From the UHGV virus genome UHGV-1493261: a stretch of 64,000 nt of DNA. One strand, written 5' to 3'. The notes under the pieces were generated by a model. That model was not told where the DNA came from. It saw only the letters and a program-made list of their open reading frames with translations, and did not search any database. How positions within the stretch are numbered: position 1 is the first letter of the stretch; each line of letters begins with the position of its first letter. This DNA is from a virus. Positions 52,710 to 55,490 of the stretch are shown here, piece by piece. The position numbers were made by a program, and so were the translations under genes.

Positions 52710-52798
52710 TGGCGGAAGGTGAAGGATTCGAACCTTCGGGGGCTAAAAGCCCCACTCGATTAGCAGTCGAGTCCCTTAAACCTCTCGGGCAACCTTCC
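52710..52798 (-). tRNA. tRNA-Ser (anticodon GCT)
   Basis: Manual cloverleaf: acceptor GGAAGGT/ACCTTCC, anticodon loop CTGCTAA, long variable arm GGGGCTTTTAGCCCC, T-loop GGTTCGAATCC, encoded CCA. Confidence 0.7.
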
Positions 52799-53016
52799 AA
52801 TTTGGACGGGCTTCGCACCCGATTGAGCATTTGATCTGCCGTAGCCCAACTCCCCGCGCTTCACAGCGCCGATTGGTTAACTGGTGACCAGTGCCTTCTG
52901 GTTAGATCCCCTGGAACTTTACAGGCTTCGCGCCCAACCATTTCTGGAAGTTGAGGCATCGTTTCCGATGTGGAGTCCCCTCATTTTACACAGCTGGCTG
53001 CAACGCTTACCGTGTT

Positions 53017-53100
53017 TGGTGTGAGTGGATGGATTCGAACCACCGCGCTGTTACGGGGAGATTTACAGTCTCCTGCATTCGACCGCTCTGCCACACTCAC
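53017..53100 (-). tRNA. tRNA-Tyr (anticodon GTA)
   Basis: Acceptor GTGAGTG/CACTCAC, anticodon stem GGAGA/TCTCC with loop CTGTAAA, 12-nt variable arm, T-arm GGTGG-TTCGAAT-CCATC, encoded CCA. Confidence 0.65.
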
Positions 53101-53216
53101 ATTTGGTGGGTGTTACTATCGTCGTCTTCGGATTCCGTTCGGCTATTGGACGTCGCTTCAAGAGCTTGTCGGTCGCGTACTTCTTGCCTATTCACTTTCG
53201 TTCACACCCATAATTC

Positions 53217-53291
53217 TGGCGGTGCCTCAAGGACTCGAACCTTGCTATCACGGATTAACAGTCCGCCGCTTCACCATTTAGCTAAAGCACC
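53217..53291 (-). tRNA. tRNA-Asn (anticodon GTT)
   Basis: Acceptor GGTGCTT/AGGCACC (one G-U), anticodon loop CTGTTAA, T-arm CAAGG-TTCGAGT-CCTTG, discriminator G, CCA. Confidence 0.7.
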
Positions 53292-53299
53292 TGAATATT

Positions 53300-53375
53300 T
53301 GGCATGCCCTCCAGGACTCGAACCTGGGTTGTACGGTTTTGGAGACCGACCTCATAGCCGCCAGATCAAGGGCAC
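53300..53375 (-). tRNA. tRNA-Trp (anticodon CCA)
   Basis: 76 nt with canonical numbering: T-arm CCAGG-TTCGAGT-CCTGG, anticodon loop CTCCAAA, acceptor GTGCCCT/AGGGCAT, CCA. Confidence 0.7.
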
Positions 53376-53443
53376 ACACCTTACAACGAACTATACTGTA
53401 TAAAGGTTATTGAAACAAACGTTTATTTTATTCAACCATAATA

Positions 53444-53520
53444 TGGTGATCCTGATTGGGTTTGAACCAATGACCAATGAATTATGAGTTCACTGCTCTA
53501 ACCGACTGAGCTACAGGACC
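53444..53520 (-). tRNA. tRNA with CAT anticodon (elongator Met or Ile-lysidine type)
   Basis: Acceptor GGTCCTG/CAGGATC, canonical D-arm TAGCTCAGTCGGTTAGAGC, anticodon loop CTCATAA, T-arm ATTGG-TTCAAAC-CCAAT, CCA. Anticodon stem lacks initiator features. Confidence 0.7.
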
Positions 53521-53736
53521 AAATTATTGTGTGACCAACCAAGGACTGTCAACCCTTTATCCCGTTTGTGCATGATCGGTTCATGCAGGCCTCTTTGTGC
53601 TGCCTCACGGCATGCGCTTCTGTTGGTCATTGGCTTACACTGTGGCCTCACAACAGGCGTTTATTTTTCCAGGGCTTTCCACTTGCAAGTCTTGACCATA
53701 CAGGGATACGGGCTTGCAAGATCGGGTTGGACACAA

Positions 53737-53811
53737 CTTTGATGGCTCTGGTATTAAAGATCCCGCGTCACCCATAGACATGGTTTATAAATCCAGAGCC
53801 ATCAAAGTTGC
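53737..53811. repeat. 18-bp perfect inverted repeat around a ~39-nt AT-rich spacer
   Basis: CAACTTTGATGGCTCTGG (53737-53754) and its exact reverse complement CCAGAGCCATCAAAGTTG (53794-53811). Confidence 0.7.
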
Positions 53812-55490
53812 AACCAATGTCGTAACTCGCAGCTTCCATACAGAAGCAACTTGTCCTCTAACACTCGGACCAAACGAGGCTGGCTGGTTGATTCAGAGCC
53901 GCTGGTTGATTCAGCAAGCATGGGTTGATAGCCCGGCAACATAGAATCACCCAATGCTCTCTCAAGTTCATAAATCGAAGTGCCCTGACTCAACAGTATG
54001 GCCCAATATGCTGTTATCGTCCACCGGATTGGCCGCCCAATTTGTAGATCAACCTTTGGGTTTAAGATAAATTGCCAAGGCACTTCGATTTGTGTGCCCT
54101 TCACCTGCCAGGGATCAGGGCTGATGGCAAGACTTCGCTCACATCTTTCAAGATACTCGTGAGAATATCCTCAAAGATGTGGTGCCGTTTTAGGGAGTCG
54201 AACCCAAATGTTCGGCCAGCGCTGACCTTACATCCCATCTGACTTAGGCAACCCACCTCTGCTTACTCAGGAGCTTATCCCCTTTGGACAGTCAGATGTA
54301 ACGGCATTTTATTTAACAATTCATTCAACTGATAACTTCAGGGGACCACTCTCATCTCCCCACATTTCGACCGCCCGGGACGGTTTAGTGGTACGTCACT
54401 TGGTCTGTTACATGGTAGGAGCCGATTCTCCCTCGAATTACCTCTTGTTCGTATGCCTACAAACAATTTCACAGATTGCTGACAAGTTATCATGTGAATG
54501 AATTGTCATTGTATGCCCTGACTTATTAATCACATCTCAGGGCCGCGATGCGCCAGATTCTGTTACAGGGAACTGGAATACCCCGCTGACTTATAGGCTA
54601 TTACGCCGCCATCAGAACTTCGGAATCATTAGCAGTTATTTGCTTGGTCAGTTTCTAAAAACCCGCAAAGTCACGCACAACGAAAACGAAAACCTGTTTG
54701 AGTCCTAAACGTACCTGTCTTAGTCTCACAACGCTATGAGTGGCCAGGACTCAAACAGCTTGCCGTTCAGTAGGTTAACTATACTTTGTAACCCGTTATT
54801 GATAAAACTTTTTATTTTGTTGGCGAGGGTGTCACCATCGATTTACCGGAACTTACGCATCCGGCCTCGCCTGTTGGTGCTCCTTCGAATCCGGGAAGAT
54901 CAGTAGGAACTATGAATCAAGTTAATTCAACCAACAGGAACCTTGTTGCCCTTTGACGCAACATTATGAACCCTCTGTGAAGACTCATAATGTTGTCGGC
55001 GTGATGGAGATTAGCGCCCCCGACCTCCCCTTGTGTTGGTGTCGACTTGCCAACGGGGTGCTCTCTGATTCTGAGCTAATCACGCTACAACAGGGAGTTT
55101 CGTTCTCCGACGGTCAAGTGCGTCCACTGACACCATGCAAGGTGGATATTGACTTATGGAGCCGGAGTCCTCGTCCTAGGACTGTGCTTGGCCTCAGCCT
55201 TTACACCGCTGGTAGCCCGACTCTTTACACCATAAAATTTACTATACTACAGCCCAACTAATTTGAAAAGTCCTCTCCTCTTTGAGCTACACTGCCCACA
55301 GCAGTGCGGACGAACCTGAACTCAAAACCGGATGCGCCGAAGTGGGCGCCTGTTTACCGGACTGATCGGGTCGACCCAGGAGAGAGCAGGTAATCCCGAT
55401 CAGAAGGATGAGGAGTAACATCATGTAAAACATAGTGTTCCCTCCCTTCCATGCAAATAACTTTACTGCAATTATTTATTGAATAAAGCG

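What the first reader, a model, noticed from the sequence alone, without database searches (positions are those of the whole stretch)
53521..54179. Repeat-dense non-coding segment: 18-bp perfect inverted repeat and tandem 13-mer
CAACTTTGATGGCTCTGG at 53737-53754 has its exact reverse complement at 53794-53811 across an AT-rich spacer; a 18-bp perfect palindrome arm is very unlikely by chance. Nearby, GCTGGTTGATTCAG occurs twice in tandem (about 53883-53915). Possible roles: protein-binding operator, replication origin with iterons, packaging signal, or a long-stem ncRNA. The only long ORF here (53802-54104, minus) has no RBS I can see.
Basis: seen in the sequence. Interest (0 to 1): 0.6.

Follow-up and report, generated by a model that had tools for sequence, protein, structure and literature searches.

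The report
Structured RNA genes beside phage tRNAs
The inverted repeat is a conserved RNA hairpin that sits next to a roughly 206-nt folded RNA in the tRNA cluster of a Salmonella/E. coli phage, and that RNA belongs to a widespread, unannotated family of cloverleaf-like RNAs found among the tRNA genes of many unrelated phages.

Summary
The window is from an Ackermannviridae phage. The finding lies in a ~2 kb ORF-poor stretch upstream, on the minus strand, of five tRNA genes.

The repeat is an RNA stem. Across 24 distinct relatives it stays 98.8% paired, 7 of 17 pairs change on both sides, the loop is replaced, and G·U outnumbers A·C 13:3 (92:9 over all helices), pointing to minus-strand RNA.

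Next to it, 53530-53735 is a ~206-nt multi-helix RNA. Its 25-nt loop motif occurs in 61 viral contigs, about 40 outside the family, often flush against tRNAs. A covariance model built only from outsiders finds one window hit (E≈1.5e-7), limited to the 5' hairpin. Rfam 15 has no such family.

The exact 14-mer tandem is window-specific, and its module shows no excess folding. The 100-aa ORF is spurious. Origin, iteron and packaging roles are not supported; record breaks at the repeat look like assembly artefacts.

Function is unknown. My best inference is a co-transcribed, tRNA-like stable RNA with a flanking processing or stabilising stem.

The parts
53734..53810 (-). It has an 18-bp perfect stem (arms 53734-53751 and 53793-53810), extendable to about 22 bp and to the 30-nt imperfect arms 53727-53817, with a 41-nt apical region.
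   Evidence: z = -8.2. helix 2: 17 pairs, 98.8% paired across 24 distinct sequences, 7 pairs with changes on both sides; the loop is replaced in Ag3 and reduced to a GAAA-capped stem in Dickeya phage; 13 G·U cells against 3 A·C.
53530..53735 (-). 'Block A', a structured RNA of about 206 nt. It is a diverged member of a widespread phage RNA family with a four-way-junction (cloverleaf-like) layout. It lies between the hairpin and tRNA-Met.
   Evidence: It is the most conserved block across Ackermannviridae genera, 76-94% identity. The structure has 99.1% of cells paired, against 24-39% in slid controls, and 16 pairs with changes on both sides.
53725..53735 (-). 5' strand of the closing helix (UGUGUCCAACC). 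It pairs with 53530-53540.
   Evidence: helix 3: CG<->UA compensation. It is fully rewritten but still complementary in KP13-26 (UUUUAUUAUUGA/UCAAUAAUAAAA) and reads ACUCAACC/GGUUGAGU in MAM1.
53680..53724 (-). 5' hairpin carrying the 25-nt family loop motif GCCCGUAUCCC-UGUA-UGGUCAAGAC (53689-53713).
   Evidence: It is the only match in the window, with 0.01 expected by chance. Model R1, built without any Ackermannviridae sequence, hits 53660-53733(-) at 37 bits, E≈1.5e-7. The stem covaries. Loop positions N1 and N4 are Watson-Crick in 50 of 50 distinct contexts.
53659..53680 (-). Invariant 22-mer GGAAAGCCCUGGAAAAAUAAAC. It contains the 5' strand (CCUG, 53670-53673) of the long-range helix.
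   Evidence: It is invariant in all 26 distinct Ackermannviridae sequences. An exact-match scan finds it only in ~150-160 kb Ackermannviridae-size contigs.
53620..53656 (-). Extra covarying hairpin domain (CUGUUG...CAACAG, with an inner GGCC stem). It is specific to the Ackermannviridae/KP13-26 subtype.
   Evidence: helices 7 and 8: UA<->GC and GC<->CG<->AU changes.
53602..53611 (-). GNRA-capped hairpin GCC-GUGA-GGC. Relatives have GUAA or GCAA loops.
   Evidence: Read from the alignments. A GNRA hairpin occupies the same place in other family members (helix 4).
53570..53586 (-). Second central hairpin, GCAUGA-ACCGA-UCAUGC, immediately before ACAAAC.
   Evidence: helix 9: UA<->CG at the base. 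The equivalent hairpin covaries family-wide (helix 5).
53541..53568 (-). CAAAC, the 3' strand (CGGG) of the long-range helix, and the 3' hairpin AAGGG-UUGACAG-UCCUU, which abuts the 3' strand of the closing helix (53530-53540).
   Evidence: helices 6 and 10. The family-wide equivalents are CAAAC-N4-C and a hairpin with loop UGGAAAG; both covary. The model did not align the window's version.
53819..53947 (-). 'Module B', a segment of about 130 nt holding the tandem 14-mers (53883-53896, 53901-53914) and a conserved core (53849-53884) that resembles a tRNA D-arm. It is bordered by the direct 9-mers CAUUGG(G/U)UG (53811-53819, 53948-53956).
   Evidence: The exact tandem is found only in this window; relatives carry CTGGAGCAACCAGC or CTGGGGCAACCAGC, or no repeat. 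The small stem GUCC/GGAC <-> GUCU/AGAC <-> GCCU/AGGC was read off the alignment by eye and not formally tested. There is no excess folding, z = +0.5. The border 9-mer occurs only at these two sites in the window. The whole module is absent in L011.
53965..54098 (-). 'Module C', a 20-bp long-range helix (arms 53969-53987 and 54076-54094) enclosing about 90 nt.
   Evidence: z = -4.1. Compensatory changes GC<->UA, CG<->UA and AU<->GC are seen against the 69-73%-identical versions in Cba120, Det7 and other Kutterviruses.
54140..54181 (-). A 19-bp hairpin directly after the ACCA end of the upstream tRNA-like element.
   Evidence: I5; z = -7.2. It is present only in the closest relatives.
53802..54104 (-).
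   Evidence: It is interrupted by a 248-nt segment (not a multiple of 3) in L001, L002 and L003. It has no Pfam family and overlaps covarying RNA helices.
53444..53520 (-). tRNA-Met, the first of five minus-strand tRNA genes (Met, Trp, Asn, Tyr, Ser; 52710-53520). It begins 10 nt after block A. A terminator-like site lies at 52492-52471(-).

Best explanation
The segment is not a DNA control site. It is part of a stable-RNA locus on the minus strand that continues the phage's tRNA cluster. The 18-bp inverted repeat is the stem of a long RNA hairpin lying directly 5' of a ~206-nt RNA (53530-53735). That RNA folds into a four-way junction with a closing helix, a long 5' hairpin with a 25-nt conserved loop, a long-range helix carrying extra hairpins, and a 3' hairpin that abuts the closing helix. 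It is a diverged member of a family present in many unrelated phages, where it typically occupies a 'tRNA slot' flush against tRNA genes.

Inferred mechanism (not shown): the region is transcribed together with the tRNAs. RNase P cleavage at the downstream tRNA-Met, followed by exonucleolytic trimming, defines the 3' end. The ~22-bp stem acts as an RNase III-type processing site or as a protective 5' stem that defines or stabilises the 5' end, in the position where other phages simply have a tRNA. The released tRNA-shaped RNA then acts in trans. What it does is unknown; candidates are a tRNA mimic or decoy, or an RNA that dimerises through its near-palindromic loop.

The tandem 14-mer is a recent local homogenisation of an older imperfect duplication and has no iteron role.
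For: Shown here:
(1) The stem is kept by compensation: 7 of 17 pairs change on both sides and 98.8% of cells pair. For the whole structure 99.1% pair, against 24-39% in slid controls.
(2) Strand: 92 G·U cells against 9 A·C overall, and 13 against 3 in the stem. This is the same strand as the five tRNAs.
(3) The loop is exchangeable while the arms are kept.
(4) Block A is the most conserved block across genera.
(5) Family: the loop motif occurs in 61 IMG/VR contigs, about 40 of them outside Ackermannviridae. KP13-26 carries a homolog in a 217-nt gap between tRNA-Asn and tRNA-Thr, with a rewritten but complementary closing helix.
(6) In 14 loci (about 7 lineages) a same-strand tRNA ends 17-25 nt before the motif. 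In phiM12 a tRNA-His follows directly.
(7) Family covariation: 87.8% paired against 28-43%, score 0.77 against 0.20 or less. On the model-fitted alignment: 96.1% paired and 23 of 27 pairs with changes on both sides.
(8) A model built only from outsiders gives one hit in the window, at E≈1.5e-7.
(9) MAM1 lacks the hairpin and has a tRNA-type 3' end (T-arm and CCA) in its place.

Established knowledge: phage T4 tRNAs are made as tightly spaced multimeric precursors cut by RNase P, which also cuts tRNA-like RNAs (PMC11143913). That E. coli RNase III needs roughly two helical turns of dsRNA is from my own knowledge.
Against: There are no expression data, so transcription, the RNA ends and the processing steps are all inferred. 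The covariance model aligns only the 5' hairpin module of the window's element. Homology of the rest rests on KP13-26 as an intermediate and on my reading of equivalent motifs. In the window the long-range helix is only 4 bp, the bulged base is C rather than U, and the 3' hairpin loop is UUGACAG rather than UGGAAAG. Shuffle controls can be exceeded by related sequences without any structure, although the slid controls argue against that here. Rabagast lacks one arm and block A in this locus, so the element appears dispensable in the laboratory. Thermodynamics does not distinguish the strands (z = -8.2 against -8.9). The RNase III role is only one of several possible roles for a long stem.
Confidence: 0.6

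Rival explanations
1. The hairpin is a functional RNA in its own right, for example a dsRNA decoy, an sRNA precursor or a protein-binding stem-loop. It is not a processing or boundary element for block A.
For: The stem covaries independently. The apical region keeps a UAUGGGUGAC motif in most lineages. In Klebsiella phage P01 an STnc100-type sRNA is inserted beside it. Several other long stems cluster in the same kilobase.
Against: The apical region is replaced in Ag3 and reduced to a GAAA tetraloop in Dickeya phage. The hairpin is absent in MAM1, where a tRNA-type end takes its place. It is always glued to block A's 5' end in the 24 sequences that have it.
Confidence: 0.17
2. The region is recombination debris of a hypervariable tRNA region: pseudo-tRNAs and fragments with no present function. 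The repeats would then be by-products.
For: The region is a mosaic. Segments of 130-260 nt are present or absent at short direct repeats (TCACCCAA, CATTGGKTG). Module B shows no excess folding. The exact 14-mer tandem is window-specific. Rabagast lacks part of the region. The 96% identity to a Klebsiella phage over 53829-54510, against 70-77% in the flanks, suggests recent exchange rather than constraint.
Against: Debris does not accumulate compensatory double substitutions. The inverted-repeat stem, block A and module C all do. Block A's relatives in unrelated phage families keep the same fold. This rival may well hold for module B and the tandem 14-mer.
Confidence: 0.12
3. The repeat acts on DNA, as an operator, an origin with iterons, a cruciform or a packaging/terminus site.
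For: It is a perfect 18-bp palindromic arm pair and the longest in the window. Three independent GenBank records (AV101, dinky, LHE287) start at the same nucleotide, CAGAGC, of one arm.
Against: G·U cells outnumber A·C 13 to 3 in the stem and 92 to 9 overall. The arm sequence drifts with compensation instead of being kept as a recognition sequence. There are only two adjacent copies of the 14-mer, exact only in this window. There is no AT-rich unwinding region or skew switch; GC is about 48%. The record ends are the two arms, reverse complements of each other, and two records have lost the loop, which is an assembler signature. The window and most relatives read through. Rabagast lacks one arm.
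Confidence: 0.06
4. The segment encodes small proteins: the 100-aa minus-strand ORF, or the plus-strand ORFs annotated in some relatives.
For: ORFs of 69-100 aa exist. Some records annotate 'hypothetical proteins' here.
Against: Annotations disagree on both strand and position between records, and most records annotate nothing. A 248-nt indel falls inside the ORF in the closest relatives. There are no Pfam hits. The substitution pattern follows base pairing.
Confidence: 0.02

Closest known systems
ROOL and GOLLD RNAs (large ornate ncRNAs of phages and prophages)
   Same: They are phage-encoded structured ncRNAs of unknown function, 'often near tRNA islands', with covarying intermolecular kissing loops (PMC12286853). 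The family found here also sits in phage tRNA arrays, and its conserved loop holds a near-palindromic tetramer in which N1 and N4 are complementary in 50 of 50 contexts.
   Different: It is much smaller (about 150-230 nt against about 580-800+ nt). The architecture is different, and there is no Rfam ROOL or GOLLD match even at E<=10. Oligomerisation has not been tested here.
Stable non-tRNA RNAs co-transcribed with phage T4 tRNAs, and tightly spaced multimeric tRNA precursors cut by RNase P
   Same: The RNA sits between or next to tRNA genes on the same strand with spacers of a few nucleotides, so its ends can be produced by the tRNA-processing machinery (PMC11143913 for T4 dimeric precursors and for RNase P cutting tRNA-like RNAs). 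That T4 encodes two extra stable RNAs of unknown function in its tRNA cluster is from my own knowledge.
   Different: No sequence relationship was tested or seen. T4-like coliphages did not appear among the BLAST hits to the loop motif.
tRNA and tRNA-like structures (cloverleaf four-way junction)
   Same: It has four helices around one junction: the 5' and 3' ends pair, about 2 nt separate the closing helix from the 5' hairpin, and a 3' hairpin with a 7-nt loop (UGGAAAG, U1...A5 as in a T-loop) lies next to the 3' strand of the closing helix.
   Different: ARAGORN and the Rfam tRNA model do not recognise it. It has no anticodon loop and no UUCRANY T-loop, CCA is not encoded, and the '5' hairpin' and 'anticodon' arms are greatly expanded.
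RNase P RNA, helix P4 with its flanking conserved strands
   Same: At the family level the long-range helix reads AAUAG-U(bulge)-CCGG ... CAAAC-CCGG-C. In the window it reads GGAAAG-C-CCUG ... CAAA-CGGG. This recalls GGAAAG-U-CCGG ... ACAGAA-CCCGG-C of bacterial P4, which I recall from memory. Genes that need RNase P are adjacent.
   Different: No RNase P model matches at E<=10 in the window or in seven other loci. The helix does not extend as P4 does. A hairpin lies between its 3' strand and the closing helix, which RNase P lacks. There are no P15- or S-domain equivalents. I treat this as a resemblance only.
RNase III processing stems in polycistronic precursors (rRNA operons, T7 early RNA)
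   Same: It is a long, nearly perfect stem of about 22 bp between functional RNAs in a presumed multi-gene transcript.
   Different: Cleavage is untested and no known site motif was checked. The stem could instead be protective.

Membership tests
Unnamed phage RNA family defined here (GCCCGAAUCCC-loop, cloverleaf-like, tRNA-array associated) | 5' hairpin whose loop is GCCCGWAUCCC-NNUN-UGGUYAAGAC, with N1 and N4 complementary | tested here: met
   There is an exact match at 53689-53713(-), the only one in the window, with 0.01 expected by chance. The tetramer is UGUA. Model R1, built from non-Ackermannviridae members only, hits 53660-53733(-) at 37 bits, E≈1.5e-7.
Unnamed phage RNA family defined here | Long-range helix G-[U bulge]-N4 / N4'-C, flanked by AAUAG and CAAAC | tested here: inconclusive
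   The window has GGAAAG-C-CCUG ... CAAA-CGGG: 4 pairs including one G·U, invariant within Ackermannviridae (helix 6). The bulged base is C and the closing G-C pair is missing. KP13-26 has CAAG/CUUG at the same place. R1 did not align this part.
Unnamed phage RNA family defined here | Central GNRA-capped hairpin followed by a second hairpin directly before CAAAC | tested here: met
   GCC-GUGA-GGC (53602-53611) and GCAUGA-N5-UCAUGC (53570-53586) are followed by ACAAAC. The same order is seen in 15 outsiders (helices 4-5). The window also has an extra hairpin domain (53620-53656).
Unnamed phage RNA family defined here | 3' hairpin with the 7-nt loop UGGAAAG next to the 3' strand of the closing helix | tested here: inconclusive
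   A hairpin lies at the right place (53541-53557) with a 7-nt loop, but the loop reads UUGACAG. KP13-26 has UGGAAUA. The stem varies on one side only (helix 10).
Unnamed phage RNA family defined here | Closing helix formed by the 5' and 3' ends | tested here: met
   53725-53735 pairs with 53530-53540. There is CG<->UA compensation within Ackermannviridae (helix 3), and the helix is fully rewritten in KP13-26.
Unnamed phage RNA family defined here | Full-length match to a family covariance model | tested here: not met
   R1 matches only the 5' module in the window and in L002, L005, L006 and L007 (36-39 bits). It gives full-length matches to KP13-26 (59.8 bits), to Vibrio phage YC, which is an Ackermannviridae (59.5 bits), and to members outside the seed alignment (74-94 bits). 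A broader model could not be built because alignment A6 has 402 columns, over the 400 limit.
Unnamed phage RNA family defined here | Same-strand position inside or next to a tRNA array | tested here: met
   tRNA-Met starts 10 nt after the element. For the family.
tRNA | Recognised by tRNA detectors; anticodon loop; canonical T-loop | tested here: not met
   ARAGORN and Rfam RF00005 call only the five known tRNAs. Nothing is called in 53521-54179 even at E<=10.
RNase P RNA | Match to the RNase P covariance models, and P1-P4 topology with the P4 3' strand leading directly into P1 | tested here: not met
   There is no RNase P hit at E<=10 in the window region or in seven family loci. A hairpin separates the helix's 3' strand from the closing helix.
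ROOL / GOLLD | Match to the Rfam models; size of 500 nt or more | tested here: not met
   There are no hits. The element is about 206 nt.
STnc100 (RF02076) | Match to the Rfam model at its gathering score | tested here: not met
   It is absent from the window. It is present at 53.6 bits in Klebsiella phage P01, as an extra 168 nt at the position equivalent to window ~53830.
Replication origin with iterons | Several dispersed copies of a conserved iteron, an AT-rich unwinding element, and conservation of the repeats | tested here: not met
   There are two adjacent copies only. The exact repeat is window-specific. GC is about 0.48 with no skew switch.
RNase III processing stem | About two helical turns or more of near-perfect dsRNA | tested here: met
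   The minimum-free-energy structure has 19+3 contiguous pairs.
RNase III processing stem | Cleavage in vivo or in vitro | not testable with these tools
   This needs RNA end mapping in rnc+ and rnc- hosts.
Intrinsic terminator | A GC-rich stem followed by a U tract | tested here: not met
   The stem is followed by UGUCCAACCCG. The scan lists no terminator-like site at the repeat on the minus strand.

The most novel reading that the evidence does not exclude
The family, including the window's 53530-53735 element, could be a catalytic or tRNA-directed RNA that phages carry alongside their tRNA genes. One form of this reading is a minimal RNase P-like ribozyme whose long-range helix (AAUAG-U-NNNN / CAAAC-N'N'N'N'-C) is a P4 analogue. 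Another is a tRNA-shaped decoy that neutralises host tRNA-targeting defence nucleases, possibly acting as a dimer through its near-palindromic loop.
Probability: 0.08. Interest if true: 0.9.

Novelty: new variant of a known kind. Interest (0 to 1): 0.62.

Why it matters
Phage tRNA clusters are usually read only as codon-supply or anti-defence tRNA sets. This work shows that a ~2 kb 'empty' stretch conserved in about 285 Ackermannviridae records, a group that includes phages studied for therapeutic and biocontrol use, contains covarying RNA structures. One of them belongs to a family that recurs in tRNA arrays of unrelated phages infecting Klebsiella, Acinetobacter, Sinorhizobium and Vibrio, and in many uncultivated phages. 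That family is absent from Rfam 15 and is unannotated in the GenBank records inspected. It gives a compact (150-230 nt), experimentally tractable companion to the enigmatic ROOL and GOLLD RNAs. It also makes a concrete question testable: what do phages gain from tRNA-shaped non-tRNAs? On the practical side, gene callers fill the region with spurious small ORFs, and assemblers break genomes at this hairpin.

Tried and rejected
- **Rfam, gathering and E<=10 thresholds, on the window and 17 related loci.** Only tRNAs came up, plus STnc100 in one Klebsiella phage. There was no RNase P, tmRNA, YrlA, ROOL or GOLLD hit. The weak mir-3119/MIR397 hits simply reflect a long hairpin.
- **RNase P homology.** I considered it because of the GGAAAG...CAAAC helix and rejected it as a membership claim, since no model matches and the topology differs.
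- **Sigma-70 promoter reading of TTGACA-18-AATAAT at 53552-53523(-).** Rejected. The start site would fall inside tRNA-Met, and the TTGACA is not conserved in the Klebsiella and Serratia phages.
- **Cis-regulatory leader for a specific gene.** Rejected because the downstream ORFs in other phages are unrelated to one another (ThyX, a TnpB-like protein, unknowns).
- **Genome terminus or pac site.** I examined the ends of three records and concluded that the breaks are assembly artefacts.
- **The 'repeat_region' in phage rabagast.** It is just one arm of module C's helix.
- **Reading module B plus the hairpin as one class-II tRNA-like gene.** The D-arm-like core and, in some Klebsiella phages, a good 5-bp/7-nt anticodon-like arm fit this reading. 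No T-arm or acceptor partner exists, so I left it as a possible tRNA remnant.
- **A broader second covariance model.** It could not be built because the alignment has 402 columns, over the 400 limit.
- **The single genome-contig scan.** I spent it on the Ackermannviridae-specific 22-mer, so whether the family occurs in cellular genomes or prophages was not tested.
- **Literature searches.** They found no description of this RNA and no Ackermannviridae transcriptome. A catalogue of 10,006 candidate viral structured RNAs (PMC10690425) may contain it unnamed; I did not check.
Full report
**Observation.** The region was read directly and scanned for repeats. The perfect 18-mers CAACTTTGATGGCTCTGG and CCAGAGCCATCAAAGTTG lie at 53734-53751 and 53793-53810. 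They sit inside 30-nt imperfect arms (53727-53756/53788-53817). This is the longest inverted repeat in the window, and four of the five long inverted repeats in all 64 kb lie within 53727-54767. The hairpin folds at -45.8 kcal/mol, z = -8.2. GCTGGTTGATTCAG occurs exactly twice, at 53883 and 53901. The 100-aa minus-strand ORF exists.

**Context.** ARAGORN and Rfam find five minus-strand tRNA genes (Ser, Tyr, Asn, Trp, Met) at 52710-53520, ending one base before the finding. A terminator-like site follows tRNA-Ser at 52492-52471(-). BLAST places the window in Ackermannviridae; the closest record is Salmonella phage vB_CECAV_050, an Agtrevirus, at 96.6% identity. In every genus examined, a stretch of 1.5-2.2 kb between the tRNAs and two conserved small minus-strand ORFs is either unannotated or filled with inconsistent small ORF calls on either strand. 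The finding region itself matches 285 phage records, most with no feature annotated under the match.

**The inverted repeat is an RNA stem.** Block mapping and alignment show that homology to distant genera breaks inside one arm and resumes at the other. The arms are kept while the apical region is replaced in Ag3 and reduced to a GAAA-capped stem in Dickeya phage. I aligned 24 distinct sequences (A2) and counted pairs on the RNAalifold structure.
- The stem (helix 2, 17 pairs) is 98.8% paired, and 7 pairs change on both sides. Examples are CUCUGG/CCAGAG to CUCUAG/CUAGAG and GGCUCUGG/CCAGAGCC to GGACACUGG/CCAGUGUCC.
- Over all 66 pairs, 99.1% of cells pair, against 24-39% when the partners are slid. 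Sixteen pairs change on both sides, against 0-2 in the slid controls.
- G·U cells outnumber A·C cells 92 to 9 overall and 13 to 3 in the stem. This is expected only if selection acts on RNA of the minus strand, the strand of the tRNAs.
- Folding energy alone does not distinguish the strands.

**Block A.** Immediately 3' of the hairpin on the minus strand, 53530-53735 is the most conserved block across genera: 93-94% identity to Ag3 and Dickeya phages and 76% to Serratia MAM1 and Klebsiella P01. It contains an invariant 22-mer, which exact-match scans find only in Ackermannviridae-size contigs. Its fold has six parts:
- a closing helix, 53725-53735 with 53530-53540;
- a long 5' hairpin, 53680-53724;
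- a short long-range helix, CCUG/CGGG;
- an extra hairpin domain, 53620-53656;
- a GNRA-capped hairpin and a second hairpin;
- a 3' hairpin, 53541-53557, next to the 3' strand of the closing helix.

Five of these helices show compensatory change. In MAM1 the hairpin is missing and a tRNA-type T-arm plus CCA end sits in its place.

**A wider family.** A weak BLAST hit led to Klebsiella phage KP13-26 (Stephanstirmvirinae). There, a 217-nt gap between tRNA-Asn and tRNA-Thr in an array of 19 annotated tRNA genes holds a homolog. Its 5' hairpin and loop are conserved and its closing helix is completely rewritten but still complementary. The 25-nt loop motif GCCCGWAUCCC-NNUN-UGGUYAAGAC occurs in 61 IMG/VR contigs. 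About 40 of these are not Ackermannviridae, and they range from 13 to 358 kb. Named carriers include Sinorhizobium phiM12 and phiN3, Acinetobacter EAb13, Escherichia HK2 (N4-like) and Vibrio phage YC. In the four neighbourhoods I inspected the element is either unannotated or overlapped only by a low-scoring ORF call.

The members share one layout: closing helix; 5' hairpin with the motif; AAUAG-U(bulge)-N4; a GNRA hairpin; a second hairpin; CAAAC-N4'-C; a hairpin with loop UGGAAAG; and the 3' strand of the closing helix.

Covariation is strong.
- On a core alignment, 87.8% of cells pair, against 28-43% slid. The score is 0.77 against 0.20 or less, and 157 cells change on both sides against 48±6 in shuffles.
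- On 27 members aligned to a model, 96.1% pair and 23 of 27 pairs change on both sides. This alignment leans towards the structure because it was fitted to it.
- Loop positions N1 and N4 are Watson-Crick in all 50 distinct contexts, and 42 of the 50 tetramers are self-complementary if G·U is allowed.

Context is consistent.
- In 14 loci (about 7 lineages) a same-strand tRNA ends 17-25 nt before the motif, and another tRNA often follows the element.
- Other members are followed by unrelated ORFs or by a terminator.
- Rfam 15 has no matching family, at gathering score in ten loci and at E<=10 in seven.

**Membership of the window's element.** A covariance model built from 15 non-Ackermannviridae members gives a single hit in the 64-kb window, at 53660-53733(-), with 37 bits and E≈1.5e-7. 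It aligns only the 5' hairpin module. The same model gives full-length hits to KP13-26, to Vibrio phage YC (a divergent Ackermannviridae) and to members outside its seed alignment. Membership is therefore formally shown for the 5' module. For the rest it is inferred through KP13-26 and through equivalent motifs in the same order.

**The rest of the finding.**
- *Module B (53819-53947)* carries the tandem 14-mers and is bordered by the only two CATTGGKTG sites in the window. One relative lacks the module entirely. Close relatives have CTGGAGCAACCAGC or CTGGGGCAACCAGC as the upstream copy, and distant ones have no repeat. The exact tandem is therefore a recent homogenisation in this phage. The module shows no excess folding, z = +0.5.
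- *Module C (53965-54098)* has a 20-bp long-range helix with compensatory changes against versions that are 69-73% identical, and z = -4.1.
- *A 248-nt segment* flanked by the 8-nt direct repeat TCACCCAA is present in the closest relatives at window 53947-53954, inside the 100-aa ORF. The ORF is therefore not conserved. None of the local ORFs has a Pfam match.
- *Window 53829-54510* is 96% identical to a Klebsiella Taipeivirus, while the flanks are 70-77% identical and the tRNA genes about 80-87%. I read this as recent horizontal exchange within a mosaic region.

**DNA-level roles.**
- There is no iteron set, no conservation of the 14-mer, and no AT-rich dip or skew switch.
- Three GenBank records (AV101, dinky, LHE287) begin at the same nucleotide of one arm. 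In AV101 and dinky the two record ends are the two arms, reverse complements of each other, and the loop is missing from the record. LHE287 keeps the loop. This is what an assembler produces at an inverted repeat. It is not what a physical end looks like, and the window and most relatives read through.
- Rabagast, whose record is deposited as a complete genome, keeps only one arm and has no block A in this locus.

**Mechanism.**
- *Shown:* conserved base pairing that is selected on the minus strand; family membership of the 5' module; the tRNA-array context.
- *Inferred:* co-transcription with the tRNAs; 3' end formation by RNase P cleavage at tRNA-Met followed by trimming (T4 precedent, PMC11143913); a processing (RNase III-type) or stabilising role for the ~22-bp stem, in the position other phages fill with a tRNA; and a trans-acting role for the released tRNA-shaped RNA.
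- *Function:* unknown. The resemblance of the long-range helix to RNase P helix P4 is noted but fails the membership tests. The nearest known kind is the group of phage ncRNAs associated with tRNA islands, ROOL and GOLLD (PMC12286853), which are much larger and unrelated in sequence.

**Verdict.** Of the four suggested roles, only 'long-stem ncRNA' survives. The more interesting result is next to it: a structured RNA belonging to a widespread phage family that is not in Rfam 15 and is unannotated in the GenBank records inspected.

Noticed in passing
window 54180-54305 (-): A tRNA-shaped element that neither ARAGORN nor Rfam calls. It has a 7-bp acceptor stem, a very long arm in the D-arm position, an expanded anticodon-like arm, a canonical T-loop (GGG-UUCGACU-CCC) and an encoded ACCA end. 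The minimum-free-energy fold is a four-way junction (z = -2.4). It is 95-98% identical in 14 loci from Kuttervirus, Taipeivirus and Agtrevirus.
   Followed up: partly
L001 2862-3110, L002 3932-4180, L003 3017-3265 (equivalent to window 53947-53954): A 248-nt segment is present in the closest relatives but absent from the window. It is flanked by the 8-nt direct repeat TCACCCAA, of which the window has one copy, and it contains a T-arm-like AGAGUUCGAUUCUCU. This is either a deletion between short repeats or an insertion with a target-site duplication.
   Followed up: partly
L002 3618-3832 (-), equivalent to window ~53830: Klebsiella phage P01 carries an Rfam STnc100 match (53.6 bits, gathering score 47), a family known as an sRNA of lambdoid prophages. 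It forms an extra 168 nt inserted right beside the inverted repeat. The window has no such element.
   Followed up: partly
window 53874-53960; L032 1501-1587: An 87-nt piece of module B, including the 14-mer region, is 84% identical (E = 3e-17) to a stretch inside the virion RNA polymerase CDS, flagged as a pseudogene, of the N4-like Klebsiella phage vB_Kpn_K17alpha62.
   Followed up: no
window 54998-55085 (-) and 54549-54740 (-): A sub-threshold tRNA hit (23 bits) has a good acceptor stem and D-arm but an expanded anticodon arm and a non-canonical T-loop. There are also weak permuted/alpha-tmRNA-like hits. Parts of both stretches are conserved as far as Serratia phage MAM1. The ~2 kb gap may hold several aberrant tRNA-like RNAs.
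   Followed up: no
window 53829-54510 vs L002 3807-4744: Identity to a Klebsiella Taipeivirus is 96%, while the flanking sequence is 70-77% identical and the tRNA genes about 80-87%. This suggests recent horizontal exchange of this segment between phage genera that have different hosts.
   Followed up: partly
OQ973471 (AV101), NC_049504 (dinky), PP761450 (LHE287): record ends; window 53751/53793: Three independently deposited 'complete genomes' are linearised exactly at the inverted repeat. Two of them lack the ~40-nt loop altogether. These are probable recurrent assembly breaks, and the deposited sequences are probably missing the loop.
   Followed up: yes
L078 (Salmonella phage rabagast, MT074469) 2213-2530: This is a natural variant that retains only one arm of the repeat plus the loop. 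It lacks block A and tRNA-Met in this locus, and a 135-nt 'tRNA-OTHER' is annotated nearby. Its record is deposited as a complete 143-kb genome.
   Followed up: partly
loop motif, window 53689-53713 (-) and 50 distinct contexts in other loci: The four variable loop positions (NNUN) are near-palindromic: UGUA, GGUC, GAUC, UAUA, AAUU and others. N1 and N4 are Watson-Crick in 50 of 50 contexts. This is compatible with a symmetric kissing-loop dimer or with an unusual two-nucleotide loop.
   Followed up: partly
window 54316-54338/54484-54506 and 54685-54706/54746-54767: Two more long inverted repeats (23 nt at 91% complementarity, and 22 nt at 86%) lie upstream in the same ORF-poor stretch. I did not analyse them for covariation.
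   Followed up: no
L031 (NZ_JAALLN010000218.1, Flavobacterium poyangense assembly, 526-nt contig): A tiny contig in a Flavobacterium genome assembly carries the Ackermannviridae-specific 22-mer and module B sequence. It is most likely phage contamination of that assembly.
   Followed up: no
window 55287-55433 (-): A 48-aa hydrophobic ORF (MFYMMLLLILLIGITCSLLG...) is annotated at the same place in relatives from several genera. It marks the upstream edge of the non-coding stretch.
   Followed up: no
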